Source: Chromera velia (Eukaryota). Taken from it: DNA of 59,634 nucleotides. Positions 11,137-42,748 of this stretch are shown here, piece after piece (position 1 is the stretch's first letter; every line of letters begins with the position of its first letter). A program made the position numbers and the translations under genes. The notes beneath the pieces were generated by a model, which had not been told where the DNA came from, searched no databases, and saw only the letters and a list, made by a program, of their open reading frames with translations. Location of the stretch: positions 1 to 59,634 of the forward strand of contig JAHBMJ010000008.1 in NCBI GenBank assembly GCA_018398765.1, in the 5' to 3' direction.

Positions 11137-11558
11137 TGTTGGTATGGCTAGCGTGACGGCAGCGTGACGACTATCAACTTACGTGTAAAGTCTGTGCATC
11201 ACTGGTTCGGTTCCTTCTTCCACTTTGTTTGTCTTTGGACATTGTATCACAAAACTGTTATACATTTTGCTGTCCATCTTCCAATCTCATTTATTTGCAT
11301 TTAATTCGCATCTTCTGTATTTCATCTGTCCAATACAGAAAAGGAATCTGTATCATCATTTCTGTATGACTTCTTTTCATTTATTGCAATACAGTTTATT
11401 TGTTTAATTCCGTGCAACGCATTCAAGTGTTGTTTGGAAAGTGTTGCATAGCTCGTGTGTGCGGCGTGCATCAATCACTCCGGTCCTCCGGGACCGCACT
11501 CCTCATGTCCCCTCAGCCCAGAGCGTCACCCCAGCCCGCTCGCCTCTGAGGCCTAAGA
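11137..11558 (-). repeat. 3' LTR of the Gypsy element
   Basis: Direct repeat of 17460-17881 (19 substitutions counted by eye); adjacent minus-strand PPT ggaggggggagtgg at ~11560-11573. Confidence 0.95.
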
Positions 11559-11802
11559 ACCACTCCCCCCTCCAGTCTGCTCGTCCCGAGCAGATCATAC
11601 AAAGGACAAAGCAGGGGCACGTTAACATGTCATGTACCAATCGAACTCCCGGGGCTGCCCTTACCCCGACGACTTCGTTTCTTTTCATTCACAGAGGCTC
11701 TTGGATACGTCCATCCTTTCGCACATTCGAGCAAGAAGGGAAAGAGGGTTTGCCTCACTCAACCAACCAGAAAAGACAAAGACAGCAATCACTGCGAGAC
11801 AT

Positions 11803-14800
11803 TCATTGGACCTGCCGGAAAAATTTTTCTTTCGCTCTCTCATATGCACCGACCAACTCTGGTGTATCCACCTCACTCTCCTTCATCCATGCGAAAGTCC
11901 CATCATCGAACGAGACTCGATACTCCTCCTCTCCATCCTCTGAGAGTCGTCCAGCCAGAATCTGAACTGGCTGAGGCGCTTTCCGTCTTCCCCTCTCTCT
12001 TTGCCTTTCTTCTGGACGAACCTCCAACTCATCTCCCAATCCGAGCTCGTCGAAGAGCTCATCCATTTCGGGGTTGTCCCCTATCCTGAATGTGGCGGGG
12101 CGATCGCTTGAGTGGGGGACTTGCTTCTCTTCTCTCTCTCTTTCTTCTTTTGCAAAGTCTTCCTCTGCCTCTCCATCATCCTCTCTCTCACGGGACTCTG
12201 TCCGTGGCGTATCTGCGGGGATCTCTTCCCCTCCCCCTTGAAGTTCATGTCCATTTTTATCCTTCTTTCCTTCTTCCCACAATTGCAATCGGTCTTCACT
12301 CACAACTTCCCTCTTCTTTCCTCCAATCGGTCGAATCACAGCGACATACGGTTGGTTGCGTGGTGTGCCAACCACGACAAAAGGCCCATCTGCCTTCGCA
12401 CTAAAAGCAGGGAAGCCGAGCTGAGGTACAGGACGACGGAAGAGAACGCGATCCCCCACTCAAAACTTTCGAGTCATGCGCAAGGGATTTTGTCTCTCTC
12501 TTGCCTGTCGCTCCCTCTCTGCTCGGTTGACCGCTCTGTTAATCTTCTCCACTCGCTTCTGCCGAATAAATCCATAATACTCATCATAGCAGAAAGGGGG
12601 TGCTCTGGCTCCCTCTGCGATTGGCTGAACTCTCAGCACAGACTGCGGTGTGTGTGCGAAGAGAAGCTCAAAGGGAGACAGCCCCATTTCGGAATGGGAG
12701 GCCGTGCGGTAGGCAGCATTGAAGCGCTGAAGGTACAAATCCCAATCCCTCTTCTCATCATCTAACTGCTTCCCTACCCCCTCTGCCCAGGAACGGTTGA
12801 AGCGTTCTGGGATCCCGTTTGTCTGCGGGTGGTATCCGGTGGTGGTGTGGTGTCGGGAACGCATGAGAACAAGGAGCTCCCTTACGATTTCACTGTGGAA
12901 GTTCGTGCTACGATCGGACACCAACACCTCAATGAACCCGTAGCGGTAAATGATCTCCTCAAAGAGAATCTTCGCCATCATCCATCCAGGCACTTCCGAA
13001 TCGGGGAGGGCAAATGTCTCGGGCCATCGGGTGAGGGCACACATCACCACGAGAACGAATCGGTTCCCTCGTTTTGTCAGCGGGAAGGGTCCCTTCACAT
13101 CGATCCCAACCACCTGAAAAGGGCAGGTCGGGACGGGGAGCGTATGAAGGGTTCTCTACGGTGTTGCTGCTCTCCTCTCTTGGCACGGACGACACTTCTC
13201 TACCCATTCTCCCACATCCTTCCGAAGACCTGGCCACTAGAATTCTCTCAACAACCTCTCTGCTAAACGCCTGCCTGCAATGTGGCCTCCCATCGGATGG
13301 TCATGGTGCATCACCATGACAGTCTCTCTCAGGTGTGTGAGCACATACAGCTGTTCTGTCTCTCCCACATAACAGTACAGCAATCTATCCTGCAAGTCAA
13401 AGAGACTCTCCTACGCCATCATCGTTTTCATTTGATTCCGTTCTGTGGGCAAAGTGCCCGTCTTCAGATATTCATACACGTCTTGCACACTGTCAGCAGG
13501 ATTAGAGGGAATAGAGGAACGGACCTTTTCAAGAAAAGGGAGAGCCGCTTGCATGGGGAGGGCATTTCCTGTCGCCCCAGCAATCGCTGCCTCAAAGCCC
13601 GGCCTCTCCGCGCTGCCCCCATCAACTGGACGGGAGCAGTGCCGACAGAACGGAGCCCCTGTGTCAACTGAGTGTTCAGCCGGCATAGGCATCCTCGACA
13701 CCGCATCGGCATCCGTGTGGCTCTTTCCCTCTTTGTAGAGATACTGCAGCCCATACTCCTGCAGCTCTAACGCCCATTTCTCTACCTGTTTATTGGCAAG
13801 CTTATTCTTCTCCATAGCCAGATTTGGTTTATGATCTGTCTGAATCACGCGGAGAAAGACGGAGCTGCCAAGCAAATAATGCCTCCACTGTCTGCAATAA
13901 AACAACCCAGCTAACGCCTCCTTCTCTGGCATTCCATAATTTAACTCAGCACTCTGCAACCTTCTGCTCGCATATGTAACCACCCGCTCTTTCTCGTCTT
14001 TGATTTGTACGAGCACTTCCCCAATCGACACATCATATGCGTTAGGCTCCACAATGAAGGGAGTGTGCGTGTTGGGAAAGCACAGAACGGGGGGCTCAGT
14101 GAGACGACGGCGCAGCTCTTAAAAGGCTGCATCGGCTTCTGCTGTCCAAACAAAGGGGCGCAGCTGTCCTTTCTCGTCAAAGGGCCGGAGAAGCTTATTG
14201 AGAGGGTGAGCTATCCGTGCGAACCCAGAGACAAAAGAGTGGTAATAATTGCACAGGAAGACAAACGTGTGCAGACGTGCACGGTCAGTTACATGGGGTT
14301 GGCCAATTCTTGACCTTTTCGGTGTTCTTCTTGCTTGGACGCACACCCTGAGCAGAGACGTTGTGCCCAAGATACTCAACCTCCACCTTTCCAATTTGTG
14401 CCTTCTCCAACCGCAACTTGAGACCTGCAACTCGGACGAGAAGGAAAACCTCCCTCAAGTCCTGCAGATGCTACTGATGCCTTCGAGAGAAGACAATCAC
14501 GTCGTCAATGTAGACGAGCGCTATGTTTCTCGGGAGGGCTGCAAGGACCATCGACATTGCCCGCTGAAAGATCGCAGGGGCATTTATAAGACCGAACGGC
14601 ATTCTAACGAACTCGAAAAGTCTAAAGGGGGTGATGAATGCGGTCTTTTCTGCATCATCTGGATCCAGAAGGATCTGATAATAGCCGGATGTGTAATCCA
14701 AGGCGAAAAACACAGAGGAACCGGCCAAACGGTTGAGGGTCTCTTAAATGCAAGGGAAGGGGAAAAGGTCCCACTTGGTGACTTCATTTAGACGTCTGAA

Positions 14801-17330
14801 GTCAAAGCAAAAGCGAATAGACCCATCAGGCTTCTTCACAAGGACAACACGTGCTGCCCACGGTGACTGTGAAGGCTTGATGATTCCCCCTTCCTGCATT
14901 GCATTAAGCTCCTTCTTAACTTTGTCTCTATAGTGATAGGGCACGCGGTCCTGACTCCATCGGACCGGTGTGTCTGTGTTTATCGGAATTTTTGTGTAGT
15001 AAAGCTTCCCCTGAAGCCTCAACATTCCCACATTGACTCTCTCTCCACTCCAAATATCCGAAAATTCCTCTAACAACTCCAAATACCGCGGCTTCCACTC
15101 CTCTGGCACAGTACTCAAATCGACAGGAGGCAGGTCAGTTTGCTCTCTCTCTCCCTTCACTCCCTCTTTGGACGTTGACTTTCCCCCTGGGTCAGGAGGG
15201 ACGGATGCACGGGCACCTCCCACCTAAGCAGAGGGCCAAAGACAGGGGGGAGACGAAGGGAAAGGGACAGGCCTGGTCTGACTGGGAGACGCCGAGACGG
15301 CGTTGACTGCGGCGATGTGTGTCGAGGGCTCGGTATGAGTCAAAGTCAATTTTGAACGGGAGACGTTCGTGACCTCGATCATAGCTACCCCTGCACGGAC
15401 AGTTGCGATCTGTGCGGGGACTGCCAGACCCGGAAGAGAACGGGGGAAACTCTTTCAAATGAAGACATCATCTCCATCAGGTACATCAATCCGCACCTGC
15501 AGGAGACTGCGATACCATGCAGGAACCCTTGTTCTCTTTGGAGCACACACCTTTGTCAGCTCAACCCCATCATCATACCACACACCGAACTCTGGCAGGT
15601 CTCCCACCTGCAACCTGTCTTTTTCAAATGCATACCTCACCTCCGGGTGCCACCTCAAGAATCTATGCCCAACACAATGTCATACCTCGAACCCTCAGCC
15701 ACCAACACCGGGTACTCAAACGTTTTCCCGGGATTTGAGGGATGTGCAATTTCAGATATTGTCTCCCCAACACACGGCACTGAATTATTGCCCAAAGCAA
15801 CCAACCCCACACTGGGAGATTTTATCTCCACATCGGTAGCAGCAAGGTACCCCACATCAACGAAAGAAACTTGGGAACCTGAATTAAGCAATGCAGACGC
15901 GGGCTTTCCAAAAAGCAAAACACTCACCCACGGACGTGGTTTGACCTCAACAGACGCAACTTGCGCCTAGACAGTAGGGCAACGCTTCTCCTCCCTGCAA
16001 AAGTGCTCGACAGACATGCATATGGGGTCCTCCTCTCTTGCACACACGGCGGGAATGAGAAGAGGCAGGTCTCTATAGACCGCATGATGGGAGGGCGGGC
16101 CTGCCTCTAAGCCCGACGTCTCCCCCCATTTCCCGGCTTTAGAGGAAGAGGGCACTGCTTAGCATGGTGGGCCTTAGACCCACAGTTCTGGCAGCCGATA
16201 TAGTTTGGATATCCGAGAGTATTGCTCCTGGGGAGGAGGGTTTCAGAGAAGAAACCGGTTGGGGCATGGGACGGATAGAAAGGAAAGTTCGAGGGCGCTT
16301 GTTGCCCTCGGCCTCCTCCAAATCCTCCTCTGCCTCCCCTGCCCAGCCCCCTCGACCCCGACTGAACCCACCCCGAAAGTTACTGCCTGCCTGCCCATAC
16401 TGAGTCGGGGCGGCCTGTGCGAGAGACTAGGTGAGTATAGCAATTTGGGCCTCCAGTTTGTCGAATCGGTCACTCTTCTGCTGCTCCTGCTTCTGCTTAC
16501 CCTTCGAATTTTGATTCGCGTCTACAGCTGCGACTTGTGCCTTGCCCTTCTGCTGTGAGTGTAGAAAACAAACTCGGGCAACGAGCTGGTGGTAGTCGTT
16601 GTATACAGTGGGCTCCCTGGTCAAATCTAAGGAGAGAGACGGGTACAGGGTGCCCAGAAAGGGCATAACTCCGGTTTGGTACAGATGTCCAGGTTGGAAG
16701 ATTCGCATAAGTTTCTCGAATGCCTCTTTATGCGTTTCAAAGTCATCACCAGGGGCCAGTTTGAGTATAGAAAGCTTGTACACTGCCTGGTTTTTCTTGG
16801 TCTCTGTTGGGGTCCACCAGAGTAAGAAGGCATCCTTGAGTTGTTGGAAGGTCAAGCGTTTCTTACTCTCCTGGGCCAACCACACCCGTGTGATAGGCTT
16901 TATGAGATGCTTCTCCACGAGCATCTACCACTCTGCGTCTGTCAGGTTTGCTTTCAAAGCCTTTGCCTCAAACATTTCCTACCACTCGACTGGACAGTCT
17001 TTATCTGGATCAAAATCCTTGACGATCGTGCGGGTGTCAAGGTTCGTGAGTTTTGTTAGGTCGACATCGTTTGGGTTTTGCTGCTGCTGTTGTTGCTGGG
17101 CTGGCTGCTGGGCTTGTTGCTAGGCTTGCTGCTGGGCTTGTTGCTGCGCCTGCTGTTGTGCCTGTTGTACCTGCTGCTACGCCGTCTGAAGGTCTGCTTG
17201 TGCCTGTGCCAGATCTGTCTGTGACTGACAGTATGCAAGCTGTTGCTGCAAGTTGGCAATTTGTTGCTACAGCTGCTGGTCGTCTGCCATCTTCTCTTCG
17301 CCTCCCTAGCTCGAAGAGCTCTTGGAACCA
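11803..17330 (-). pseudogene. Disrupted gag-pol: Gln-rich gag, protease, RT, RNase H, integrase, chromodomain
   Basis: ALLNSGSQ (protease, catalytic D replaced by N), RMPFGL..YIDDVIVFS (RT), YASRRL..NY..EKEAL, TDHK (RNase H), HHCC finger, GIDVKGP, VSDR..F, PQTNGIPERFN, GPF (integrase), EYRVSF..W..ESEV..ELV..Y (chromodomain); many stops and frameshifts. Confidence 0.92.
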
Positions 17331-17443
17331 CTGATTGACTGCCTGGTTGGCTGGCAAGAAAGGGTTGAGGTAAGCCCTTCCCGATCGTGTGGTTCTGGAG
17401 ATGGCTGCAATGAAAGAGAAACAGAGGCCGTGAAAAAGAACGT

Positions 17444-17455
17444 GCTCTGCTACCA
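17444..17455 (-). promoter_or_regulatory. Primer-binding site (initiator tRNA-Met type)
   Basis: Minus-strand TGGTAGCAGAGC next to the 5' LTR, complementary to the ...CTCTGCTACCA 3' end of eukaryotic tRNAi-Met. Confidence 0.85.
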
Positions 17456-17459
17456 CTTT

Positions 17460-17881
17460 TGTTGGTATGGCTAGCGTGACGGCAGCGTAACGACTATCAA
17501 CTTACGTGTAAAGTCTGTGCATCACTGGTTCGGTTCCTTCTTCCACTTTGTTTGTCTTCGGACATTGCATCACAAAACTGTCATACATCTTACTGTCCAT
17601 CTTCTAATCTCATTTATTTGCATTTAATTCGCATCTTCTGTATTTCATCTGTCCAATACAGAAAAGGAATCTGTATCGTCATTTCTGTATGACTTCTTTT
17701 CATTTATTGCAATACAGTTTGTTTGTTTAATTCCGTATAACACATTCAAGTGTTGTTTGGAAAGTGTTGCATGGCTCGTGTGCGCGGCGTGCATCAATCA
17801 CTCCGGTCCTCCGGGACCGCACTCCTCACGTCCCCTTAGCCCAGAGCGTCACCCCGGCCCGCTCGCCTCTGAAGCCTAACA
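17460..17881 (-). repeat. 5' LTR of the Gypsy element
   Basis: TGTTGG...CTAACA, direct repeat of 11137-11558. Confidence 0.95.
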
Positions 17882-19059
17882 AAATGATAACTTTGAGAAG
17901 CGATAACTAGAGCGATCGATCGATAAAGGAGTTAGTGGCTAGGTTAGTGGTGTCTGCATGCCCACCTGTATATAAGCAGTAGCACTAGATGACTATAGCC
18001 TAGTGACTAGCATTAGTACCGTTTTGTCTCCTAGTTAAATCTAGAGTTAAATTGTCTTTCAAGAATAAAAGGATTATTATAAAAACAAACAGCATTGTTA
18101 CAACAAAGAGTCTGCGTTTCTACTGAGCTAGTTGCATTTCTAAGCCGTGTTTCCTTTCACTAAGCTAGTCATTGCTAGAGTCATTGAGACATCAGACCGC
18201 CCCTACTGGCACACCTACTAATAAGTTATCACCTATAGCCAAGCTAGCCCCACACCCCATTAAATTGAGGTATAATTGCGTTAGATGGGGGGATTAAATG
18301 GGAGTCATTATGGGACATAATTTCACCTCAATTTCTCTAAATGGGCCACAGTGACTATTTTTAGGGGGGCGGGTTAATTATATTATTATATTATTATTAA
18401 AGGTGTTTAATCATGGAATATATTTGTTCATTAGTTACTCACTTCAAAAGTAATATAATCAGGAATGTATTCCTAAATTAATTAAGGGGGGGTCTGGGGA
18501 GCGGAGCCCCCCGGGCTACATTTTTGATTTTTTTTTTTTTTAACACAGTTTATGACTATAAAAAATTGGTTTTGAAAAAGATAAACAGGGGCTATCTAGC
18601 TGTTAGGCACTGTTAATAGGCAGTAGTGTAACAGTTACCATACTAGACTGTATTACAGTGTTACTAGAATTTTATAAAATCTTATAATTTATAAACTTAT
18701 TAAACTAGCAAATAATACATCATATGAATACGCGGTTGAAAGTTCATATATATTCTCATTGCATGAACATGCACACACTACACCAAAATACGCATGCACA
18801 CTGCAGCACACACTGCATAGCGAAAGGAGGCCTTACTGTATACACTACGTAAGATGCACTCTTTTTCACTTTCAGCATTCGAACGTGAAACACCAAAACA
18901 CCATAAGCACTGTCGAGCAAAAAATTATTTGGATACAAACAAGCAGTACATCTTCACTGAAGAAGGAAATGGAACCTCACCCTCTATGGTGATGGAGACA
19001 ATGTGAGGAAGCAGAGTGGCGTTATCTCCCATCTTTGCAATTTTTTTTTTGAGCTCATT

Positions 19060-20597: not shown

Positions 20598-23500
20598 TCA
20601 TCGCGGCGGTGTATCTGATGTTTCACCCCCTTTTCTCTTGTCTCTCGGCCTCCTGCCCATGCGGGGAGACTGGCGGAACGAGTCGAGGGTCTGACCCCCA
20701 CTGTAGAAGCGGGAAAACGTTTTTTTGAAAGGAGCTCCGTCCGCTGAGTTTTCCCCATCCTCCGCATCATCGTCATCTGGGTTGTTGCTTTTGCTTTGAC
20801 AGTCCGATTCCGAAACTGGAAAAGGATTTTCAGAGGCGGCAAGCGGGGCCTCGTCAGACGCTTCCGATCGTCGAGCGTTTACACTCACACTGTCGGCTGC
20901 AACCATCGCTGCAGCACTGTTTGCCGCACTCGATTCTCGTCCCTCCTCCTGCCTTTCAACTTTTTTCCCCACACCCCAGAGACTCCCGAAACCTCTCCAC
21001 AGATCCTGTGGCAATCCTCCGACCCCCTCTGCTTGTCCGCTTTCCTCTTTCTGTTCGAGGGCCCGGCGCTTTTTGAGCACAGAGAGCGTACCCACGTTGT
21101 TCGTTTGGGGTCGGCTTTGGGCGCTGCGGAGGATGAGATCCCAAACCTGCAGGCAAGGCATGCATACACGATGAAGAATGGGTTTGTCTGTCTGGCGGGA
21201 GAGAGGGACACAGGGAGGCAAGAACTTTATTCAGAGAGAGAGGCACCGGCTTTGCGCTTTGTTGTGTGTATGCCGAATCGGCCCTTCTTTTTGTGTGTAT
21301 GCAAAACTAAGACTGGTTCTGGTGGGCTATGTGAATGAAGCCTGGACCGAGTGGGCGGGTCCAACAAACTGGTGTAAAGGGGTCAGACAGAGAAGGGAGA
21401 AATGACTTGAGCGAAGACTGCACATGCAATGAAGCTTTCCTTCCGACTCAAAAGAAACCAAACAAAAGCAACCTGCATGCAGATAGAGAGAAAACAAAAG
21501 ACTGCACATGCAATGAAGCTTTCCTTCCGACTCAAAAGAAACCAAACAAAAGCAATCTGCATGCAGATAGAGAGAAAACAAAAGACTGCACATGCAATGA
21601 AGCTTTCCTTCCGACTCAAAAGAAACCAAACAAAAGCAACTTTCATGCAGATAGAGAGAAAACAAAAGACTGCACATGCAATGAAGCTTTCCTTCCGACT
21701 CAAAAGAGACCACAGAAGAACAGAAAGCGGCAAGCTCGGGTGCTTGAGAAGGATTGACATCCAGTCAGAAAAAACTGCCAGAAAGAGAAAATTAATGAAT
21801 TGGGACCCAGACTCAAGCAACACAAAAGGATAAAATAAATGAGTTTTCGACGTTCGGGATGAAAGAAAAAGCGTACCGACCGCATCACCCTTGTACATCC
21901 GCCTTGCCTCCATCTCCAAAAAAATTTGCCACACCTCATCCTGTTTGCCCCCCCTGCTGCAGGCCTTCATTGCTAACACCAAGGTCTCCCGAGTGATACC
22001 AAGACCCCCCGGACCCCCACCTCTCAGCTCCCGAATCAACAACAAAGCACGCCCGCCCAACCCCCTCTCAGCGCAGATGCGCAGGAGGGCGTGGTATGCA
22101 AGTGTCGTTCTCTTGTGTCCCTCTCGCTGCATTCTCTGAAAGAGCACAAACGCGTTTGCAGAGAAACTCCCATCAGCACTTTCCTTTTCCTGCCCCTCCA
22201 ACCCCTCATGAGAACTGGGAGCATTCCCTCTCTGACTCAAGGGCCCGCACACCGCATTGGCGCACGCAACTATGGCCCAAGAATACGTCAGACCTGTTGG
22301 AGAAACGCCTTCGTGTGCCATCCGGTCTAGGAGAGACATTGCCGTAGAGGCGTCACCTCTATCGGCGCAAACAGCGATGGCTGCTGTGTAAGTATCGGCA
22401 TCCGGTTGCATGACTCGGGACTTCAAGTCCTCGAGAACAGCAACAGCCTCTGCGGAAGGCCGACCTTGTGCACGAAGCACCGAAATCAATCCGATGAACG
22501 CCCCCCTACTGGGAGCCCGGGGGGCTTTTTGATCACTACACAGGCCGGTGTACTCACTCAGGAGCATCTTTGCTCTCTCTGCGCCATCAGGCGCTGTCCT
22601 CTGTGCATATATGGACGCTGTGTAGGCAGCGGAGGAAGGCTGCTGACCCAGAGCGGCCTCCATCTTCCTGAGGAGCGTGACCGCGGCAGGGCCCGCGGCA
22701 GGGTTACGTGAAGCAGCTACAGCGCGAAGGGCGGAAAGGAAGTGATCAGCTGTTCTAGGAACTCCGAGGCGCTTCATCTGGTCAAGTACATTGACCGCCT
22801 TCTCCCACGCCCCGCCCTGCCTGCACGCTTCCAGCGTAATGGCAAAATCCTGTACGTCAGGAGTCACCCCCACCTCTGTCATACGATCCAGCAGCGTACA
22901 AGCGAGGACAAATTTTCCATGGATCATGAAGTTGTAAAGAACGCGCGCGTAGTCATCATGGGCCCTCTGACGTCCGGTTTCCGGCGTCTCCTCATTCATG
23001 GCTTTGAATACGCCCATGATGTTTCCCAACGTTTCTCTGCGAAATCTCTTGAGACCCGGAAAGAAACGAGAAGAACCCGGTCGGCGCCGCATAACCACCA
23101 CGCCACCTGAAGAGACACCTCCTCTCGCTGTTGAGGTACCATCAGGTGAGGTGACGGCTTCGGAGGAATGGAGAGTTGTCTCCGAAAATGTGTGGGAGGG
23201 GTCTAGAACCGCTTCCTCCTGTCCGTCCATCAACTTTTCCTGGATAGCTCCGAACTCCTGCAGGCAGGCAGGCAGGCAGGCAGGCAGAAGACAGATTAAA
23301 AACAGGCGACGCGGATGACTTGCTGACAGCCTATGAACATGCATTCGGCATGAAACTGCTTGCTGCTCGTCTGCCCTAAGAAAACGCCCCACGCTCCCCC
23401 CCACACTGCGCCGAGCGACTCACCTGAAGGAAAAAGTCCCACTCTAAAGAGTCACTTGAAGGATGGCCAGAATGAAAGCTGATTGGCGGGCCCCGTCGAG

Positions 23501-24021: not shown

Positions 24022-24227
24022 TGGCCCCGGAAAGCGAAGCGGGGGGCACTTACAAAACAGAAGGATTAACTAAACAGGTGTTTGGATGTTTAAACAGAAA
24101 TACCCCAGCCCACGCATGCATGCATGCATGCACGCGCAGTGTCGTCTTTCACCAAAAACCCGGCCCTTCGCCGGAAAGCGAAGCGGGGGGCACTTACAAA
24201 ATAGAAATACCCCAGCCCACGCGTGCA
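24022..24227. promoter_or_regulatory. GGCCCCGGAAAGCGAAGC/TGCATGCA motif cluster upstream of the PPR gene, continued at 36430-36483 beyond the LINE
   Basis: ccggaaagcgaagcggggggcactta near 24027, 24171 and 36458, related to the 5.3-6.1 kb array; regulatory role is inferred from position. Confidence 0.5.
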
Positions 24228-30459: not shown

Positions 30460-33400
30460 ATGCTGGCCATACTGTGTGTGAATGTCTATGGACTGTCCGA
30501 CCGCTTGCAGTGTCCCCACTTCCGGGATCTCTTGGACTGCATGGACATCCTCGTATGTACAGAGACGCGCATGCTGTCAGAAGAACTCCACTTGGACACG
30601 CATTGGTGCCTGAATTTCCCGCACTACCATGAAACAGCAGATGATCTCACTAGGTTTACAGGGGGGGTAGCCTTTTTCGTGAATAAACAATTGTGCCCAG
30701 AGGTCCCAAGAAGCAATGCAATTGGCCCTTCTTGCACCTCAATCAGGTTTCCAGCACCTGCTGAGCTTGCCCAGATCCCCGCAAATCCCCTTTGTGACAA
30801 AGCCCCTGTAACCGAGGCCCGGGTGTTTACAATTGTGGGTGCTTACTTTCCTACCTCTTCTGCGCAGCGTTACGTGGGTGTCTCCTTAGACACCCTCTAG
30901 GATGGGATCCAAGGGGTCCTAATGTCCTCGCAAGCTGACTTCAGAGTCTTGTGTGGGGACTTCAATGCACACACGGCCAACCTTTGCACCAAAGTCCCCC
31001 TCCCGTCGTTATCAGACAACGCCTTTATGCCTCATGCCTCTGACCACATAGCCCTAGCTGGTAGAGAGCAGCGTTCAGGTCCCCCTCTCTATATCCAGAT
31101 CCAAAGGGACAGTAGAGATCGCAGGAGGCCAGACCCACAGGAGAAAACCCTTATTGACAGGGCGTCAGAATGTGAACTGACCATATTGAATGGGGTAAGA
31201 CTCATCCCTGCTGTTCAGCCCCCCCTCCTATCATGCCTGCTCCCCAACCCTCCTGCTATTGATGGTGCTCCGATCTTAGGACAGAGCTGTGAACACCCGT
31301 CTATGACTCAGAAATCACCCGAAGAGAGCCGTGAGGACCCTCTCCTGGGGTCGGCCCTGTGGGACCCTTGTCCGTCGTCTGCCGAGCACACGTATTTCCG
31401 AGAAGCTAGGGTTTCGGTTGTAGACTATATCTTCGTCAGTACAAACCTTCTCCCACTCCTTCGCTCCTTCTCCATCAGAAGGGACAGGGAGATAGCACTG
31501 GATCACACTCTCCTCTGCGCGGGGTTTGGGCAAGCTCAGGTTGTACGGCACAGTGAATGCCCAGTTGCAGAACCTAGGCGTCCAGGCCCCCCCCAGGGGT
31601 CGGACGAGTATCAATAACGGTCTAACCCGCGCTGTTCACAGCATGAGCAACGAGTCCCACTTGCCTCCTGGGCCCCCGCCTACCCTGCCTGAGGGGTGGG
31701 AATTCGCCTCCTACCTTCGTGGCAGCTGGCCAAGGCCCGGTGCCCACTGCCCTGTCCCGACTTTCGATTCACCAGGATTTGTCGATGCGTCAAACAAGCT
31801 GTGCTCCTACCTGAATATCCGTAAATCTCTCTGGATGGGCCTAGATATAGGTGCAGTGCAGCCCCTCCCCCTACCCGCTGGCATGGAGCAGGGGGATACG
31901 ATTGATTCCATTTTCTCCGGATGGTTTCAGGCAGTATGTTGTGAGGCAGGTGGCCGTCCCCCCTTGGTTGCTCCCTGTCCTCCTCCTTTGAACTCCGAGA
32001 GCCCATCACCACCTCCCAGATGTGTTACTCCACCTAACGATGAACAAAGGGGGGTATCTGCGGGGGCGACTTGGAGGGTAGGAAGAAGGTCCAATGTGCC
32101 CCAGAACAGGCCCCCGATTCTCCGACCACTCCGATTAAAGGTGCGGTGGTAGGCAATTGAAGTGAGGAAACAAAAGGCGTTGTTGTTGGCTCTCGGACGA
32201 CTTCCTGTAGGGTCCAGCTGACCGTTACACCTTGTCATCGCAGAGACCCACAAAAAGTACAAGGAGGCTAAAACAGCGTACAACCGAGCCTTATCAGCTT
32301 ATGTGAAGTCGGAGGCAGTGGAGCGGGAAAGAGTGCTGCAAGCAGAACTGCAGAAAAGTCCACAGGGAATCTATGAACTACTCAGAGACCTCTGCAAACG
32401 CGCAGCAGCAAGGTTGATGCCCTCTCGTGCCGACGATGGTACGTCAGCTGCCCCTACAACACAAGTCCCCTCCCCCTGGGCTTTTGCTGAGCACTTTGCT
32501 CAAGTATTCCGCTGTCCTGAGGAATCCAGTCCCGAGGAATGCTGTTCAGGGCCCCTTCCGATTTCTTCCTCTCTCACAGCCCCTGGCATATCGGTCTCAA
32601 CTGTCTCACAGAATGCCCGTGCCCCTCCTGTGCGAGGCTTGGCGCCCTTGAGCACGGAGATACCCCCATCACTTCAGGGGTCCTTTGCCCCCCTAGTGCC
32701 ACCGCCAGGTTTTCCTCCCCTCTCCCCCCTCTCAGACCCCCCCCCCCAACCTGAGGCTTCCGACCCCAGAGCCCCGTCTAGTGCATGGGAAGCTACTGGT
32801 AGGGTATCGCCGTTCCCGGATCTCGAATTCTTCTCTCAGGAGGAAGTAAAGTCCTGTCTAAGGGCTAGTAAGAAAAAGAAGGCGGCTGGCGTTGATGGGC
32901 TAGTGGTTGAGAACCTGAGGAAATGGTCCCAAAACCCGCTCTTCGTAGCCTCAGTCACAGACGTGTTTAACGTCTGCCTTGTAGAGGGCAGAATTGCGTC
33001 AATCTGGAATAGATGTCTTATCTCACCGGTGCTGAAGCCCGGGAAAGACCCGGAGGACCCGGCCTCCTACAGAGCGATCCATCTGCTTGGACACCTCTCG
33101 AAGATGTTCAGCTCACTCATTGATCAGCGATTGAGGAAGATTGTTTCGCTTTCCCGGGTGCAGTTTGGATTTCAAAAGGGTAAAGGTACCAGGGACGCTC
33201 TGTTCGTTTTCAACCACATCCTTAAGAAGTATCACTCCCCAGGTATGCATTGTGTTTTTATCGACTTGAAGCAAGCATTTGACTCGGTAGGACATAAGCG
33301 TCTGTGGGAGTGCTTAAAGGATGAGGGGGTCCCCCCTCATTGGGTATGGGTAACACCGTTGTTCAAGGTATGTACACCGACGTGTGGGCAACGGTCTGTC

Positions 33401-35955
33401 AACCTGCCAGTGAGGGTACGCAGAATCGGTGTGTAGCGGGCTTAGCTCCCACTGCTGGCAAGTTTTGGTTTAGAGAGAGCGTTGGGGTCAAGCAGGGCGA
33501 TCCATTCTCACCACTGTTATTTAATCTCTTTATAAATGACCTCCCGTCTTTTATCGCTGACCGACGTCTTACGGCCCTGCCAAATAGGACTGGGCCATCC
33601 GATCAGAATCTTCAACCCCCCCTCTCGTCTTCCACTCTCCCTCCAGCCTTGCTGGCAGCTGTTTCGTCTGCCTCCTCTTCGTCTTCCAGTCACCCGACTT
33701 CCGCCAAGGTTGGGGTTGGGCCTTCTTCTGACTTCTGTGAGCTTGAGTGCCTCCTTTACGCTGATGATCTCGTTTTGTTTCACCCAGACCCAGGTGAGCT
33801 GACTTGCATGCTTGATCGTTTGTCTGCCTACTGTTAGAAGAACGGATTATCTGTGAATGTCTCAAAGTCATACTCGTTGTTTGTGGGGGAGGAATGGAGT
33901 TTGGGCGAAAGGAAGGTCTTTCTCTTTGGGGGGAAAGTCATACAACGTTGTTTGGAGTTTAAATATCTGGGTGCAATTTTCAACAGGAATAGGGCAGTCA
34001 GTCGCGCTTTTGAAATGCATCTAAAAAAAGGGAAGAGGAAGGTGTTTGCATTACTTGGGGAACTTACACTGCTTGGCAAGGTCTTTCCGGGGAGGTTGAT
34101 AACAATATGCAGGACTGCAGCCTCGTCAGTATTCCTCTATTCGGCGGAGACAGTGGACTTGTCCCCTCGACAACTGCATCTTATTGACGACTTCTGGTTA
34201 AGCCTATGCCGGTCCGAGGTTGGCTTCCCCCAAACCTCCCCAAGGATTCTCACCCTCCTTCAGTTTGGTATCCTGCCCGCAGCCGCAACCCTAGCAGAAA
34301 GAGCGCTCAGGTTCCTGTGAGGAGTGGCGCAGAGGCCAGTGAATGACCTAACCAACCTCGTATATAGATAACTGTGTGAGAGGCGACAACTGGCTATCTT
34401 GGACGACTTTGTTTCTTTCGTTTCGTCCTGTTGTCTCGTAGTAAAACTAGACCGCGCTGATGTGCTTCCACAAAGCCCTTTGTCTTCGAGTATGGTGATG
34501 TCATAGGGGGGGGAGCTCTTTTCATCGCCGATGGGTGGTGTGCAGAGAAAAGTCTGGGAGACGGCAACTCAACAGACAAATTGGTCTTCTCCGGGCGTCC
34601 CCCCCCCTTTTTTCGTCTTACCTCTGTCTCTGTTCCCTCCTTATGGTTGCACATACCTTTCCGATGCCTCGTCAAGCAGGTTTGCACGTCTGCTGTAGCG
34701 TCACGAGCCGTGGCCGCACTTTGAAAAACCGTCCCCCCGTTCCTACCTTCTGGAACGCTCGCTTCCTTTCCAGTCTCGTCGAGTTATCTCTCTTTTCCGA
34801 CTGGGGATCTGCCAGACCTCGGCCAGGACGGCCTTGTTTAGAGGTATGACGGCTTTTTCCCCCCTCGCTCGCTGTTCATTTTGCAAAGAACGAAACCTAA
34901 CGACCCCACCGCAAGATCTACCCATCGGTGATGAGCTTCACGCTCTTTCTGACTGCCCGGAATTTGACTCTGCTAGAGATTGATTCCAGCAGGTCCTGCG
35001 GGTCTCGCCGAAAGCGAAGTACTTCAGCCTCAGCGCACTCGACCGCAGCGAGATATTCTTCATCAAAGTCCTTGTCCCACTACTTTCTGAACGCCCTGGA
35101 TTGGTGGGGCGAACGTTGGTAGGGATCAACGAGTCTTTAATTCGCAAACGAAGAGACATAACGAGACAGGACACCCCTTCAGATGGAGAAGATGTGGGCC
35201 GACAGGGTTTGCCAAATCGGTCTGCTGGCACGGGGGGGGTGAGGGGCACAACGTCTGCTAGACAGTCATGTCAAGCCATCGTCATTCAGGGTCAGAGTCT
35301 TCCGATCCTCTCTTCAACGTCTGCAGCCCCCATCCAAGCCAGTCTGCTGCATAGAGTCGCCGCTAAATCAACTCTTTCTGCAGGCCGGCGTTCCACCATG
35401 TTGCCTGCTGTCCGGTCGTTAGATGCCCACCGTTCAGGCACTTACCCGCTTCCCCCCCTTCTGCCACTGTCACAAGTGTCAGTTGTCTACACGGATGGCG
35501 CCAGCCGCTCTAATGGTACACCGCATGCGAAGGTGGGTTATGGAACATATTGGGGTCCTGGACATCTATGTAACCTCAGCTGTAGACTCAAAGGTAAGCA
35601 GACAAACAATCGAGCCGAGCTGAGTGCGATCATAGCTGCACTTGAAACTGGAATTCTCTATGGTCCTCCTCGCACGCTGATAGTCAAATCTGATTTGTGG
35701 TATGCTTGCCAAGCCCTGGAGTCATGGGTTTCGCGATGGGAAAGAAATGGTTGGAGAAGACCTGATGGAAACTTTAAGCCAGTGTGCAATCAAGATTTGA
35801 TTGGCAAGTTGGTCAGCCTTATCAATGAATACGAATGGGTACTGGGGGGGACTGTGTCTATCCAATAGGTGAAGGCGCACAATAAAGAGCCTAGCAACGA
35901 GGCAGCAGATGCTCTCGCTGTCAAGGATGCGTATCTTCCCATCCCTTGTGCGTAA
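30460..35955 (+). pseudogene. LINE ORF2: AP endonuclease, reverse transcriptase, CCHC finger, RNase H
   Basis: APE: NVYGL, DILVCTETR, GGVAFFV, LCGDFNAH, VDYIFV, LDH. RT: AAGVDGL, QFGF, IDLKQAFDSV, GVKQGDPFSPLLFNL, YADDLV, KYLG. CSFC..DELH..DC finger. RNase H: YTDGAS, TNNRAEL, KSD, *VKAH, NEAADALA. Confidence 0.93.
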
Positions 35956-37239
35956 TGTTCTTGTCTGTAAAGGAGTAAGGGGTTGGGTGTGCTGGTCTGA
36001 TATACTGGGCCGGAGTGAGAAAGCGTAACTTAAGGCGGAGAGGGAGATTTGGTTCTGGCTTTGGAAGTCGAAGACTGTCTGGCGCTGCACCCTACTCTTA
36101 GAACTAGAGGAGGTTGTGCTGACTGAATTTATCTATTCTTCTTCTCGGTCGTTGATGCAGCATGCTTGGTAGGAGTTTTTCTCCTCTTAGCATGAGTCGG
36201 TTTTCCGCCTTAGCCTGTTTTTCCTCATTAACTGGTACTGCATGCCGGAGGTTTTTTATCCAGGACCACTCTAGAGAGCGGGCTAATAGACCGTATGCAT
36301 GACTAGATACGTAGTGAGTGGCGGGTAATGCCGAGCAGTTGCGTGATGTATGTGTATAGGGTGGAGGTACTACCCGGACGGGCGGATGCTCCCATACCCC
36401 CCCTTAATACCTAATACCTAATACCTAACACCCCAGCCCACGCGTGCATGCATGGCCCCGGAAAGCGAAGCGGGGGGCACTTAGTAAACTTTTCCTAGAG
36501 CTCACGATGCATAGAGCTTTGATAAAAAAAAGGCCCCAGAAAGCTTCAACCGCTCCTCAGTGGCTCAGAAAAGCGTCAAAAATTAACCACCTACCCTCGT
36601 TTAATCCACTATCACTTGCTGCCAATGCGTCCAAAGTAGGCAGGCGGTTTTAGCATAGTTTTATAGTCAGTACTACCAAACAATACATGTCGCACTCTTC
36701 CAGCATACGTGTCAAGGAAGAAGGAAGAGGGATCGTCTGGTCATTGTTCTTTTGAAAAACTTTGAGACGTCGTTGAGTTGCCCTCTTTCAGAACCACAAC
36801 TTCAAGTTGAAGAAGAATGCCGTCTCCGCTGGCCATCGATGATCGATCTGCATCCCTCTCCTCTCAATTCGCTCCAAGACTTTCAACACTGTCAGCTGCA
36901 CACCAACATCGGGTGAGACGTCGAAGCAATGCACAGCTGTCTGCGACTGTTTGTGTATCTTCATAGATTCTTGGAAAGTTGTTAAGCGCTTGAGCTGTTC
37001 CCGCTCTGTGTTTGCAGCATTCAGTGTCGACTGGAACTGAAGGCGTACATGTAGCTGTCCTTGAATGTCCTGCGTATACGTCGACCTGGTATTTCTCTCT
37101 ATTTTCTTTTCTGCCTCCATCTATTCAGTTTGTTGATGCATGCCCGTCTCCATCAGGAATTAACGTCTCTTCGTGAAAAAATGCGGACTGCGTCTTCTCC
37201 CGGCCTGGATTGGACCGGTCACAATCAATCACGCTCACA

Positions 37240-38240
37240 ATTTTTGCTGAAAAGACTCTCTTCGCTCACTTACCCACTCGCTCACGCGCTCTTTTCCTCA
37301 ATCTCTTCCTCCATGATCGCTTCATCCTTGCCTTCCTCCTCTGACTTACTGACTCACTAACTTCTTTGCTCATCCACTCACCCCCTCACTCTTTTCCGCC
37401 AACCCTCCCTACCTACCTCCTTCCCTGCCTGCTTTCATCCCAGCTTCCTTCCTTCCATCCCTCTGCTCCTTCGCTCACTCGTTCAGTCGCTCACTCACTC
37501 ATTCACTCATTCACTTACTCATTCACTTACACACCAACCCGCTCGCTCACTCACATAGATACCAAGCAACATCTACTTACTCAATGCCTCTTTTACTAGC
37601 TGACTCACTTACTGATATACTTCCTCGCTCTTTCTTTCTTGCTTAATATCTTTCGTTCTCTCTTTCTTTTTTTTTGTTCTTTTCTTTTCTCCCTTTTTTT
37701 ATTCTTTGTGCTTTTGTCCTTCTATCCTTCTTTCCTCTCTTCTTTGTTTCTATACTTTCTTTCTTCCCTTCTTTCTGTCTTTGATCCCTGTTTTATTTCT
37801 TCATTCTTCCACTTTCCGCCTGCCTCCTCTCTTTCTGCATGTTTTTCTGCTATTTCTTTTTTCTGTCCTTTCTCCAGTTTTTGTTTGCTTGCTCGTTTGC
37901 TGGGTACTTGTTTATCTACCTGCTTCTTTCCTACTAAGACTTTCTTTCCTTGATTCTTTCTTTTCTCCCTGCTTTATTCCTTCCGGTTCCTAACCTTCCT
38001 CCCTCCCTCCTTCCCTCCCTCCGTTCGTCTCTTCCATCTTCGTTCCTTCCCCCCTTTCCTCCTTTTTTCCATCCTTCCTTCCTTCCTTCCTTCCTTCCTT
38101 CCTCGGAAGTTCATCCCTCCCTTCCTTTCGATCACCTTCCCTGCCTCCCTGCCAGAACCTACCTCCGTCGCGCCCCCTCTTTCCTCGCTCCCTTACTTGC
38201 TTCATGCTTCCTTCCATGCTTCCTAGCCTTCCTCCCTCAT
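37240..38240. repeat. Pyrimidine-rich low-complexity tract (TCAC, CTTT, CTTC repeats)
   Basis: Runs of tcactcac and cttccttc. Confidence 0.8.
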
Positions 38241-39131
38241 GAGTCATGATCTAGCCCATAATGATGGGTCTCAAACTAGGTCTCAAATTCCGTCCCTCTG
38301 TCTCTCCTTATTTTGCTCCCACTTTTTTGCAAAGATATTGCAAAGTGGGGCTTGAAGCGGCACCTACTGTCGCAGCCGGTGGCAGCTTATCATGCCTTGA
38401 TTAATTAACTTTGAAGTCGTATGAAGAACGTTCAATAATCTTCAATTGAGGCTACAGGAAATTCATGAAAAAATTAAATGAATGATGGGTCAAAAACTCA
38501 AAGTTAAATAAACCATCATCAAAAAATAAAAAATAAAAAAAAATTATGATGAAAGAAAGATTATTCGAGATACTGTTCGACCACTGTGACATTTTATATT
38601 AAAATAATATTAAAAGAAAATCAATTCTCTTATCAAATGTTTAAATATTTTTAAAGATGCATAGCATAGCATTATGAAAAACCCGTACAGCAGTATTCTT
38701 AAATATACGAGTCTACAAAAAGCCTGTCTAAGCCTCACTGAAGTTTATGCTCGATTATGCTCATATAAAAAATAAGTTATTGGTGGCTTTTATTAAGTGT
38801 CAAAATGTCTGGGCGGCTTCTGCCATTATATATCATTAATTCAAATCTGAGTAAATCAGAATGTTCATGGTGTGCCTGGGGTGAAACCACCATGACTCTG
38901 GAAAATAAAACAGGGGACACTAAATTATGAAACAACTATAGACCAAACAATTCTCGCGACCGCGAGTATACCTTTCCGCAGCTTCAAGCATGCAGCCATA
39001 TAGCATGCATCTAGTACGTACGAATAGCGTGCGTCAAGTAATTATCATTTTTCTTGCTTTCCAGGGCCGTTTGCAAGCTTGCTTACGTCAGATGCACGCG
39101 CAGTGTCTTTCAGAAAAAACCTGGCCCCGAA

Positions 39132-42112
39132 CGTAGCGTTGTGAAGGTCTGACAAGCAGTTGTGTTAGGATGAAATGAAGTACGCGCGCATAACATGCGT
39201 AGGGCGTATGCATGCATGCATGCCGGGAATTAATTGTGCAGCATGCAGTCTCTATGAAGACATCCGTTGTTTGTCTTACAGAACAGAGATAGCAGAACTA
39301 CCCATGCATGACAGAACCTTTATCCGTATGTAGGAGCTGATCCCAGCTACGACTAGCTGAGGGCCTACATCCCTACGTGGTAGCAGAGCCTGAACCGGCC
39401 TCAGTAGGTTCGCGTGCTCTCGTTTCATCGATTGAACATGTGAACAGTCCATCTTCTGCTGTGCGAGTGCAAAGTTACGGATTAACTTTTATCGCCTGCA
39501 CGCAGCCACATCTTGAAGTCCGTAATCAGTAGAGAGCCACGTCTTTCTTTTTCCTTGAAAGTTTGTTTCGATGTCGGTGCCTGATCGCTTTGGGGAGTTC
39601 GTTCTCGCTGTCGAGAGACTCGAGAAATTCAAGCATGTCTCTTTTTTCGAAGTGCACAAGAACGGTCGATCTCTTCTCGACGAAGGAAAAGAGCTTGCAG
39701 AGAAGCTCTTTATTGCTGCAGGGGGCAACTTAGAGACTCTGCAGTCCCGGCAGAAGCCCAACTTTTCCGTTTCAACAACACCGCCCTCCACCAATACAGA
39801 GGGTGTCACGAAGAAGAAGACTCGCAGAAGCAAAAGGATGATGGGAAGAGCCTGGGCCCGCAAGCAATTAAGCAAGACGAATGAAGAGAATGCACCAAAG
39901 TTGATGACGTCTTTGGGGAAGAAAAACAAAAGTGCAGATCGTCTGTCCGCGTTGCTATCATCGCAGGCAGATGGAAAGAAAGAGAAGAGCCCGTGCAGAG
40001 GAAGTGGGTGGAGGCCTGTGGCATCCGTTCCTGATGCCCCACCCAGTCAGGAAGAGTATGTTGAGACAGAAGTGAGTGGTCTGCATGCTCTGCTCCCAAG
40101 AACATTCGTAGGAGCATCAGGGAATGGCAGAGGAGAAGTGAGAGAGACAGAAGACCCGTCTTCATACACTGGTCGACCGACAGACCAGGAGGACGTGAAT
40201 ATGCACCATCCCGCAAGTGGAGAGATGCAGCTGGAGATGCAGTCTGTGGGTCTGTCTGATTTTCCCCCTGTGATTACTCCAGCCGGGGGATATTTACAGA
40301 ACGAAGAGGTAGTTCCTATGTTGCTTGGTGTTCTGCACTCCACTTTGCAAACGTAGGAGAAACCAGGGAGAGCCGAAAGGAGGACCGCAAAGCAGCAGAG
40401 GAAGAGGGAGAGAAAGAAAGAAGCTAAACACCAAACACAGTTGTATACAATCAGACAAACTCGAACGGGGGATCACCAGACGACCCTCGGTGGTTCCCTT
40501 CAGAAGGTAGCTGTGCAGACGTAGGGGGAGAGTGTTTGCATGCACACGGGTTTGTGTAGGGGATCTACAGTGCAAGACGAGATGGGAAGAGCGGCTGTCC
40601 TTCAAGGCCGTAAAGAGAGGAAGAAGATGCGAAAAGAGTGGAAGAAGCAAGAGACGCGGAGGGTTGAAATCAAAACGATTCGACAGGAGCAGACAGAGGC
40701 AAGGGGTTTTGGTAATCAGTCAATGCCTCGCCTTAGAGAACCTTTGCCAGCTTCAGAGACCGCTCCTCGTAGATTTGGCTCCATTCGCCTCCGTGGATGT
40801 GTCAAAATGGGAGATGTGCGAGAAACAAGGGGGCTTGGGAGTTCCACGCCTCTGCTGAGAAGCGTTACCCCGCCAAGGAGAATCAGCAGCATCCATCAGT
40901 CCGATCAAGAGCACACACCGAACACACAGCACGAGGGGTACAGAGTGGAAGAATTGCCTCCGTCTGTCCAGGCACTTTTTCAGGAATCTTGGGCACGATA
41001 TGCGATGGGAATGCCCATTTACTGAGCAAGAGAGTAAGCAGAAGGCATCGTGCAGGGAAGAAACAATTGATGAGGGTGCAACGTAGTAAGTGATCATGTA
41101 GGCATGGAGACGGCGTGTGTCTCTATTCAGTCTTGTTGCACGACTGTCCGATCTCGTCCGTTTGTATTCGTTCTTTTCGTTTGAACAGTCGTCTTGGCCT
41201 GTTTGTCTACCCTGGGGGATCGAATTCTCGCAGTGGTTGTCGTTTGGTTTGATAAAGGAATATCTGTCTGCGCTCGCCAGGAATTTTTTTTTTCGGTGAT
41301 CGTTTCAATCGTTGCGTGCCTTTGCTCAGCTGCGGGGCGCGGCGTTGGAGAAAGGGGGCACGGTGTGGGTGAGGAAGGAAGGGAGGAGACGGAAGCAGGT
41401 GGCATGCAGTAAGGAGACAGAGCAAAGAGAGGAAGAGAAGAAGAGCTGACAGTGACTGACGGCCAGAAAGGGAAGACTCTGTTTGTGTAGCATGACGGCT
41501 GAAATAAGGCAGACATTCAGATCGATCAGAAAAAGAGAGAGCAAGAGTTAAAGTAGGCAGAGGTGGCTGTATTGGCTACGGATTAGCCAATCAGAGAAAC
41601 AGTTCATCTCATGTGCTGCTGCATTCCAGGTTCAAATCCTGTGAACGATTCTTCATCCCGCTTTTCATGTGAGAAAAGAGAGCCTGCTTTGCAATCAGTC
41701 GTCATAAGCCTAATCAGCAGCAAAGGCTGGAAGAAGGAGAACATGACTTGAGGTGACTTGCATAGATTCGAGATCGTTCTGTATGGACCGCGCCTTTTTG
41801 AGATCAAATTGCCTCATGCTGATGAAGTGGCGGGATGCCACTCTAGAGGGAGGGGGCACGTAGCGTTGTGAAGGTCTGACAAGCAGTTGTGTTAGGATAA
41901 AATGAAGTACGTGCGCATAACGTGCGTAGGGCGCATGCATGCATGCATGCATGTATGCCGGGAATTAATTGTGCAGCATGCAGTCTCTATGAAGACATCC
42001 GTTGTTTGTTTTACAGAATAGAGATAGCAGAACTACCCATGCATGACAGAACCTTTATCCGTATGTAGGAGCTGATCCCAGCTACGACTAGCTGAGGGCC
42101 TACATCCCTACG
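39132..42112 (+). mobile_element. Non-autonomous LTR element with CGTAG...CTACG termini
   Basis: LTRs 39132-39377 and 41859-42112; TSD CCGAA at 39127-39131 and 42113-42117; PBS TGGTAGCAGAGC at 39378-39389; PPT agagggaggggg at 41845-41856. Confidence 0.92.
39571..41025 (+). pseudogene. Single ~484-codon frame of unknown function in the LTR element, broken by two TAG stops
   Basis: ORFs 39571-40356 and 40540-41025 share a frame; stops at 40354 and 40522; no gag/pol motif seen. Confidence 0.55.
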
Positions 42113-42748
42113 CCGAAAGGCTGAATTGGGCTATGTGTGCATCAGATGCCACTTACCCCGGGGCTTACCCGGGGGGAGGGGGGGATTCCGCGCATATTTT
42201 TTTCCCGTGTAGGGGGGGGGTCGGCGTACGTCAATCGTGCAGTTCTCATTTTTCTTGCTTTCCGGGGCCGTTCGCAAGCTTGCTTGCGTCAGATGCATGT
42301 GGTTGCATGTGTGCTTTCCCGGCCGCGGCCCATCTTAATTGCCCCCGGCCGCGGGCCCGGCCGCGCCATGCGCCAATATATATGCGCCATGGCGCCCGCC
42401 CGGCCGTGCACCCGCGGCCGCGCGCTTTCCGCGGCGGACCCGCCGCGGCCGGCAAAAATTACTGCTCGATCATTCCGCGCCATTTCCGCGCCAATCTTCG
42501 ATCAAACCACCTAACAACATCATATCAAGCCCACCTGGAAAAAAGACACATGCAGTAGTGGTTATTAGAGTGTCCATATAATATCACTGCCCCCCCCGCT
42601 CTCTCGTACAAGACAAGGACAAGAGGTTTTCCACTTGTCCTGGGAAAAAAACCTGAACCCGTTTGCTGAAGCCCAACGGTGTGGAGCAACGGAGCAAGCA
42701 GGAGACGACAGACGGCTGTCAATTAAGTGGAGAACTGAAAGCAGCGAC

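What the first reader, a model, noticed from the sequence alone, without database searches (positions are those of the whole stretch)
39132..42112. LTR element with non-canonical CG...CG termini
Seen: both LTRs begin CGTAG and end CTACG. The ends are fixed by the CCGAA TSD, a directly abutting PBS and a PPT. Known: LTR integrases almost always need TG...CA ends. All four termini agree and the change runs against the local C-to-T bias, so decay is an unlikely cause. Inference: a family mobilised by an integrase with altered end specificity, missed by standard LTR finders.
Basis: partly seen in the sequence, partly recalled or inferred. Interest (0 to 1): 0.7.

Follow-up and report, generated by a model that had tools for sequence, protein, structure and literature searches.

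The report
CG-ended LTR retrotransposon family in Chromera
This is a real, multi-copy jumping gene of the alga Chromera velia whose end repeats finish in CG instead of the usual TG...CA; it has no copying enzymes of its own and is likely pasted by a still unidentified helper integrase, probably a separate case from the CG-ended Troyka elements of animals.

Summary
Observation confirmed. The 2,981-bp element has LTRs of 246 and 254 bp (6 substitutions, one 8-nt indel), all four ends CGTAG...CTACG, a CCGAA duplication, an abutting PBS and a PPT. Contigs of public runs show other insertions whose LTR match starts (8 and 11 contigs in two runs) or stops (5 contigs) at exactly these bases. A paralogous empty site has one CCGAA. 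The ends are therefore a family trait, not decay. The host is Chromera velia. The element lacks gag/pol but carries a 484-codon orphan ORF, intact in other copies and found only in C. velia, in at least three divergent groups. CG...CG ends are not unprecedented: Troyka elements have them (PMC12440569), but with 3-bp TSDs, CGCCA...TGGCG ends and animal hosts, none of which fits here. The helper and its integrase were not found, so 'altered specificity' remains inferred. Verdict: new variant of a known kind, probably an independent origin of CG ends. Interest 0.45.

The parts
39127..39131 (+). left target-site duplication CCGAA (5 bp)
   Evidence: single CCGAA in a paralogous empty site, table 5c (run X3)
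39132..39377 (+). 5' LTR, 246 bp, CGTAG...CTACG; the two ends match as an inverted repeat at 9 of 11 bases
   Evidence: junctions of other insertions at 39132 and 39377
39378..39389 (+). primer-binding site, abutting the LTR; likely initiator-Met tRNA (recalled, not tested)
   Evidence: same 12-mer follows the LTR of the neighbouring gypsy element; no tRNA gene in the window
39571..41025 (+). 484-codon orphan ORF; two in-frame TAG stops (40354, 40522) in this copy; about 50-aa helical N-terminus, remainder likely disordered and partly basic
   Evidence: natural copies P0001, P0004, P0034 read through both positions
41026..41844 (+). non-coding 3' internal region, no pol remnant detected; ends in a short predicted hairpin with a GGGA loop just before the PPT
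   Evidence: fold z -1.4, not significant
41845..41858 (+). polypurine tract (12 purines) plus a 2-nt CA spacer
   Evidence: the same junction in 5 contigs of X1 with full agreement
41859..42112 (+). 3' LTR, 254 bp, CGTAG...CTACG
42113..42117 (+). right target-site duplication CCGAA

Best explanation
It is a multi-copy, non-autonomous LTR retrotransposon family of Chromera velia with fixed CG...CG ends and a 5-bp target duplication, likely copied and integrated in trans by an unidentified helper element whose integrase is predicted to prefer CG-3' ends, probably arisen independently of Troyka. Shown: anatomy, boundaries, independent insertions with the same ends, absence of detectable gag/pol, an ORF intact in other copies. 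Inferred: transcription from the 5' LTR; tRNA priming at the PBS; plus-strand priming at the PPT; removal of the 2-nt spacer at the PPT-side end (both ends read CTACG then TG on the strand that is joined); joining of the 3'-G to target DNA cut with a 5-bp stagger. A change at each end is copied to both LTRs in one replication round, but the U3 and U5 changes are two separate events, and both have been kept against C-to-T pressure, which points to selection by the integrase. The helper is slightly more likely Ty3/gypsy-type than copia-type (weak). The orphan ORF likely serves the element's own RNA handling or packaging (guess from basic motifs kept across 36-49% identical relatives).
For: Four identical ends, TSD, PBS, PPT. 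LTR match starts exactly at the C in 8 contigs (X1) and 11 (X3) with unlike flanks, and ends at the G in 5 (X1); one more each in X5 and X2. Paralogous empty site of the right length with one CCGAA. Mutation pressure runs C to T. No pol or gag similarity inside the element. ORF open in P0034 and P0001; 0 of 2000 shuffles give such a frame; relatives only in C. velia where a source names one. Ty1 integrase rejects changed terminal dinucleotides (PMC2939329, passages). Troyka diagnostics fail. Gypsy hint: one C. velia gene model joins an ORF relative to a Ty3-type capsid (P0029).
Against: TSD length rests on this one copy plus one empty paralog. Four X3 contigs begin two bases inside with a consensus ending CA, so some copies have lost the 5' CG (read as CpG decay, polarity inferred), and 36 loose-end rows were hidden, so TG-started copies are not excluded. 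X1 and X3 are the same organism, so their counts overlap and do not add. The 3'-junction row was shown only for X1. The window's own left junction had no cover. P0029 may be a chimeric gene model, as P0003 is. Lotus elements with different ends cluster together on the integrase tree (PMC9804982), so changed ends need not mean a changed enzyme.
Confidence: 0.6

Rival explanations
1. The family is moved by an ordinary TG...CA-type gypsy or copia integrase of C. velia that merely tolerates CG ends; the CG ends were fixed by founder amplification, as proposed for TARE1.
For: TARE1 spread a single end mutation by amplification (PMC3701649). Many non-TGCA plant elements sit among TGCA relatives. The neighbouring TG...CA gypsy uses the same PBS 12-mer and a 5-bp TSD. 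CA to CG keeps the penultimate C.
Against: Both ends changed symmetrically, which needs two events against the C-to-T bias. In the plant surveys read, CG ends were not listed, and the first T was invariant in two of them (AA...CA is an exception). No LTR similarity to the neighbouring gypsy beyond the PBS.
Confidence: 0.22
2. It is a non-autonomous member of a divergent Troyka (Kuafuortervirus) lineage outside animals, perhaps acquired from corals, whose integrase has shifted to a 5-bp stagger.
For: CG...CG ends, LTR and internal lengths within the Troyka range, non-autonomous Troyka exist, variant ends such as TTACG and CGTCA are recorded, Troyka is common in Hexacorallia. The coral association of Chromera is recalled.
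Against: TSD is 5 bp, not 3. Ends are CGTAG/CTACG, not among the variants listed for 603 Troyka LTRs. No Troyka outside Metazoa; a screen of 1029 protist genomes found one ascidian endosymbiont only (whether Chromera was screened could not be seen). No CX2CX8-10HX4C knuckle in the ORF.
Confidence: 0.12
3. The CG ends are an accident of this copy (mutation, mis-set boundary or assembly error) and the family has other ends.
For: The window's own left junction was not covered; a one-base boundary ambiguity exists in the window alone.
Against: Independent insertions in four runs start at the same C; TSD, PBS and empty site agree; decay goes the other way.
Confidence: 0.03

Closest known systems
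Troyka / Kuafuortervirus LTR retrotransposons (Kojima 2025, PMC12440569; Gong and Han 2024, PMC11673190)
   Same: 5'-CG...CG-3' LTR ends, LTRs of 100-400 bp, non-autonomous members known
   Different: 5-bp rather than 3-bp TSD; CGTAG...CTACG rather than CGCCA...TGGCG; alveolate host rather than aquatic animals; orphan ORF without the Troyka zinc knuckle
Non-TGCA plant LTR elements: Tos17, TARE1, AtRE1, TGTT/AACA, lotus Copia (10.1101/137141, PMC9804982, PMC5659011, PMC3701649)
   Same: short LTRs (about 250-300 bp), 5-bp TSD, PBS and PPT, family-wide non-canonical ends, TRIM-like members (AACA3/4)
   Different: none listed in the passages read starts with C or ends with G; most are not symmetric; here both ends changed and stay a perfect inverted pair
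TRIM / LARD non-autonomous LTR elements (5.98 Mb putative in C. velia, PMC4501334 Supplementary file 2)
   Same: LTR-PBS-PPT-LTR, no gag/pol, about 3 kb, multi-copy
   Different: carries a long ORF kept open in other copies and conserved across divergent groups; CG ends
Diatom CoDi3.2, 4.2, 4.3 copia families (PMC2806351)
   Same: protist LTR families reported to lack TG/CA ends
   Different: autonomous copia; their actual end letters could not be seen (supplement unavailable)

Membership tests
LTR retrotransposon | two direct LTRs | tested here: met
   246/254 bp, 6 substitutions, one indel
LTR retrotransposon | 4-6 bp TSD | tested here: met
   CCGAA; empty paralog; one copy only
LTR retrotransposon | PBS and PPT inside the LTRs | tested here: met
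   identity of the priming tRNA is recalled, not tested
LTR retrotransposon | dispersed copies with the same boundaries | tested here: met
LTR retrotransposon (canonical) | TG...CA termini | tested here: not met
   CG...CG at all four ends and in other insertions
Autonomous LTR retrotransposon | gag and pol | tested here: not met
   no Pfam hit, no tblastn hit of 22 integrase/pol proteins better than E 0.006
Troyka | 5'-CG...CG-3' termini | tested here: met
Troyka | 3-bp TSD | tested here: not met
   5 bp; a 3-bp reading needs ends that break the LTR pair
Troyka | CGCCA...TGGCG or a listed variant | tested here: not met
   CGTAG...CTACG is not among the variants of 603 LTRs
Troyka | aquatic animal host | tested here: not met
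   window matches a C. velia gene model at 100%
Troyka | Gag knuckle CX2CX8-10HX4C | tested here: inconclusive
   absent from the ORF, but the element is non-autonomous
Troyka | RT/IN phylogeny | not testable with these tools
   no pol in the element; helper not found
Ty3/gypsy versus Ty1/copia | pol domain order of the helper | not testable with these tools
   only hints: P0029, pre-PPT hairpin
TRIM/LARD | non-coding internal region | tested here: not met
   484-codon ORF intact in other copies

The most novel reading that the evidence does not exclude
C. velia hosts an undescribed lineage of LTR elements whose integrase joins G-ended DNA with a 5-bp stagger and whose members carry their own orphan protein in place of, or ahead of, Gag: an origin of CG end recognition separate from Troyka, or the first Troyka-related lineage established outside animals.
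Probability: 0.25. Interest if true: 0.7.

Novelty: new variant of a known kind. Interest (0 to 1): 0.45.

Why it matters
The terminal CA is close to invariant for retroviral and LTR integrases, and changing it abolishes Ty1 substrate use. A natural family with CG ends and a 5-bp TSD separates end recognition from target stagger, which go together in Troyka (CG, 3 bp). If the helper is a gypsy or copia element, comparing its integrase with close TG...CA relatives in the same genome would point to the residues that read the last base. Practically, motif-filtered LTR annotation would likely miss this family, and its ORF is entered as host genes and spliced into false gene models in C. velia.

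Tried and rejected
Pattern scans of metagenome, prokaryotic genome and viral collections gave 2, 4 and 2 loci, all chance 16-22 nt matches without further similarity. The search for related loci in viral contigs with P0001 and P0029 found nothing. No longer (848-2420 aa) relative of the ORF was found, weak evidence. An integrase search found 7 C. velia proteins related to the neighbouring gypsy among 22 hits, none linkable to this LTR. Pfam, ESM Atlas, PDB sequence, Foldseek and VIA searches left the ORF unassigned. No Rfam match. Hairpins at U5 and before the PPT fold no better than shuffles. No RNA holder on record was listed; run X5 is only guessed to be RNA. The window paralog of the target repeat at 24128 is not a clean empty site. 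The neighbouring gypsy was rejected as parent: no LTR or internal similarity beyond the PBS. Rejected readings: TA...TA ends with CG flanks (other insertions include the CG); 3-bp TSD; 4-bp TSD with an A start.

Full report
Observation. The sequence is as described. The 5' LTR (39132-39377, 246 bp) and 3' LTR (41859-42112, 254 bp) both start CGTAG and end CTACG; CCGAA flanks the element on both sides; a 12-nt PBS abuts the 5' LTR; a 12-purine tract followed by CA precedes the 3' LTR. The LTRs differ by 6 substitutions in 246 columns, all transitions, and one 8-nt indel in a GCAT run. Enumerating boundaries within 12 bases gave the 5-bp solution and one alternative compatible with the LTR pair, a start at A 39131 with a 4-bp duplication.

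Is it a family? On the 5' LTR alone, contigs with unlike flanks begin matching exactly at 39132 in 8 cases (X1) and 11 cases (X3), and stop exactly at 39377 in 5 cases (X1); PPT junctions form a separate row at 39131 (5 and 6 contigs). Single junctions in X5 and X2 also begin at the C. This excludes the A start and shows that CG ends belong to independent insertions. Against: 4 X3 contigs begin at 39134 with a consensus ending CA, which I read as CpG decay; 36 rows were not shown, so a few TG-started copies cannot be excluded; X1 and X3 are one organism and their counts overlap; the window's own left junction had no cover. A contig in X3 from a paralog of the target repeat has the length of the empty site with one CCGAA (table 5c). 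Internal depth of 246 and 136 against 25 and 19 on long flank contigs suggests about 7-10 close full-length copies; the tool warns that depth is no copy number, so this is rough.

Mutation bias. Of the 40 rows shown table 3, 38 lie in the element; 33 have T or A in the window where other copies have C or G, 4 are the reverse and 1 is a transversion. I passed 34 of the 38 to (left out: 39253, 41374, 41790, 41831). Contexts of the 33 were CA 13, CG 12, CC 4, CT 4. With the other copies taken as ancestral (inferred), decay runs C to T, so TG to CG at the ends is against the bias, and CG...CG would decay towards TG...CA rather than from it.

Host and coding content. A gene model of Chromera velia CCMP2878 (P0003, Cvel_14246) matches the window at 100% over two stretches, which fixes the host. 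The internal region holds a 484-codon frame (39571-41025) with two TAG stops in this copy; natural copies P0001, P0004 and P0034 read through, and 0 of 2000 shuffles gave a frame with so few stops. The 22 changes examined in the ORF were 6 synonymous and 16 not, as expected for neutral decay of this copy after insertion (33% synonymous expected). HMMER over 1.84 billion representatives found 9 relatives; all with a named organism are C. velia, in groups at about 90%, 44-49% and 36-39% identity. One cluster member comes from a transcriptome collection (P0033), a weak hint of transcription. No Pfam family, solved structure or fold match was found; an alignment-based model of a relative gives three confident helices in the first 50 residues, then disorder. 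No gag, RT or integrase remnant is detectable. One relative, P0029, continues into a Ty3-type capsid unlike the neighbouring gypsy's gag. This could mean that autonomous forms carry the ORF ahead of gag, or it could be a chimeric gene model like P0003.

Mechanism. Shown: anatomy and family-wide ends. Inferred from established LTR biology: the element is transcribed, packaged by a helper's Gag, primed by a tRNA at the PBS (initiator Met, recalled; the neighbouring gypsy has the same 12-mer) and at the PPT, and integrated with a 5-bp stagger. On the strand that is joined, both ends read CTACG followed by TG (from the PBS at one end, from the CA spacer at the other), and these two letters are not integrated, which fits 2-nt trimming at least at the PPT side. 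The ends match as an inverted repeat at 9 of 11 bases, which fits a symmetric recognition site. Since U3 and U5 ends are templated separately, two changes had to be fixed and kept against CpG decay; I take this as likely selection by an integrase that prefers CG-3' (0.6), with tolerance by an ordinary integrase (0.22) and a divergent Troyka (0.12) as rivals. The helper was not found.

Comparison with what is known. Troyka elements have 5'-CG...CG-3' ends, 3-bp TSDs, CGCCA at 573 and TGGCG at 522 of 603 LTRs, and were found only in aquatic animals (PMC12440569; passages and parts 2-4 of 5 of the text read; supplements not held). A screen of 8001 genomes with 1029 protists found the lineage in one protist, an ascidian endosymbiont (PMC11673190; passages; its held supplement does not mention Chromera). 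This element shares only the dinucleotide and the size range, so it works like Troyka at the last two bases but is not filed as a member. Plant surveys list non-TGCA ends with the first T invariant (10.1101/137141 and PMC9804982; passages), with AA...CA as an exception (PMC5659011; passages); none of the passages lists CG. TARE1 shows spread of one end mutation (PMC3701649; passages). Ty1 integrase rejects reversed terminal dinucleotides (PMC2939329; passages). Three diatom copia families lack TG/CA (PMC2806351; passages; supplement not held). The C. velia genome paper gives only class totals for TEs, with 5.98 Mb putative TRIM/LARD (PMC4501334; passages and Supplementary file 2). Ten literature searches listed no description of this family; Repbase and subscription papers were not searchable. 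Unchecked notes of this scan report CG-ended diatom copia elements with 4-bp TSDs; if right, CG ends recur in several lineages, which lowers the surprise of any one case but raises the value of the comparison.

Verdict. Real, family-wide, undescribed in the papers searched, but not unprecedented: a new variant of a known kind. Interest 0.45; about 0.7 if the helper proves to be a distinct lineage with a CG-specific integrase.

Noticed in passing
window 11137-17882 (-): Decayed autonomous Ty3/gypsy element with 423-bp LTRs, outer ends TG...CA, TSD CATTT, the same PBS after a 4-nt spacer; its 3' LTR starts TC rather than TG. The integrase has a long tail that looks chromodomain-like by eye but has no Pfam match.
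   Followed up: partly
window 31303-40353: Gene model Cvel_14246 (P0003) splices a LINE-like reverse transcriptase (32246-33241) onto part of this element's ORF; very likely a false model. An RNase H lies at 34984-35868.
   Followed up: partly
window 39027-39131, 42113-42300, 24128-24200, 5332-6128: The element sits inside a very abundant dispersed repeat (summed depth above 30,000 at 42176-42292); related pieces lie at 24128 and 42224, and a 204-bp tandem array at 5332-6128 starts with a similar motif.
   Followed up: partly
window 39132-42112: C-to-T decay of this copy hits CA as often as CG (13 and 12 of 33), which suggests non-CpG methylation or a RIP-like process in Chromera repeats (selected rows, no background correction).
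   Followed up: no
window 39140-39142 and 39367-39369: A TGT...ACA pair lies 8 bases inside each LTR end, symmetrically; it could be the trace of older canonical ends or chance.
   Followed up: no
window 39389 and 41832: Loose ends show a second, more divergent subfamily with the same PBS, PPT and LTR but a different leader and 3' internal region; a candidate route to the helper.
   Followed up: no
window 21383-23419 (-): Pentatricopeptide-repeat gene frame with an 84-bp tandem repeat at 21414-21712.
   Followed up: no
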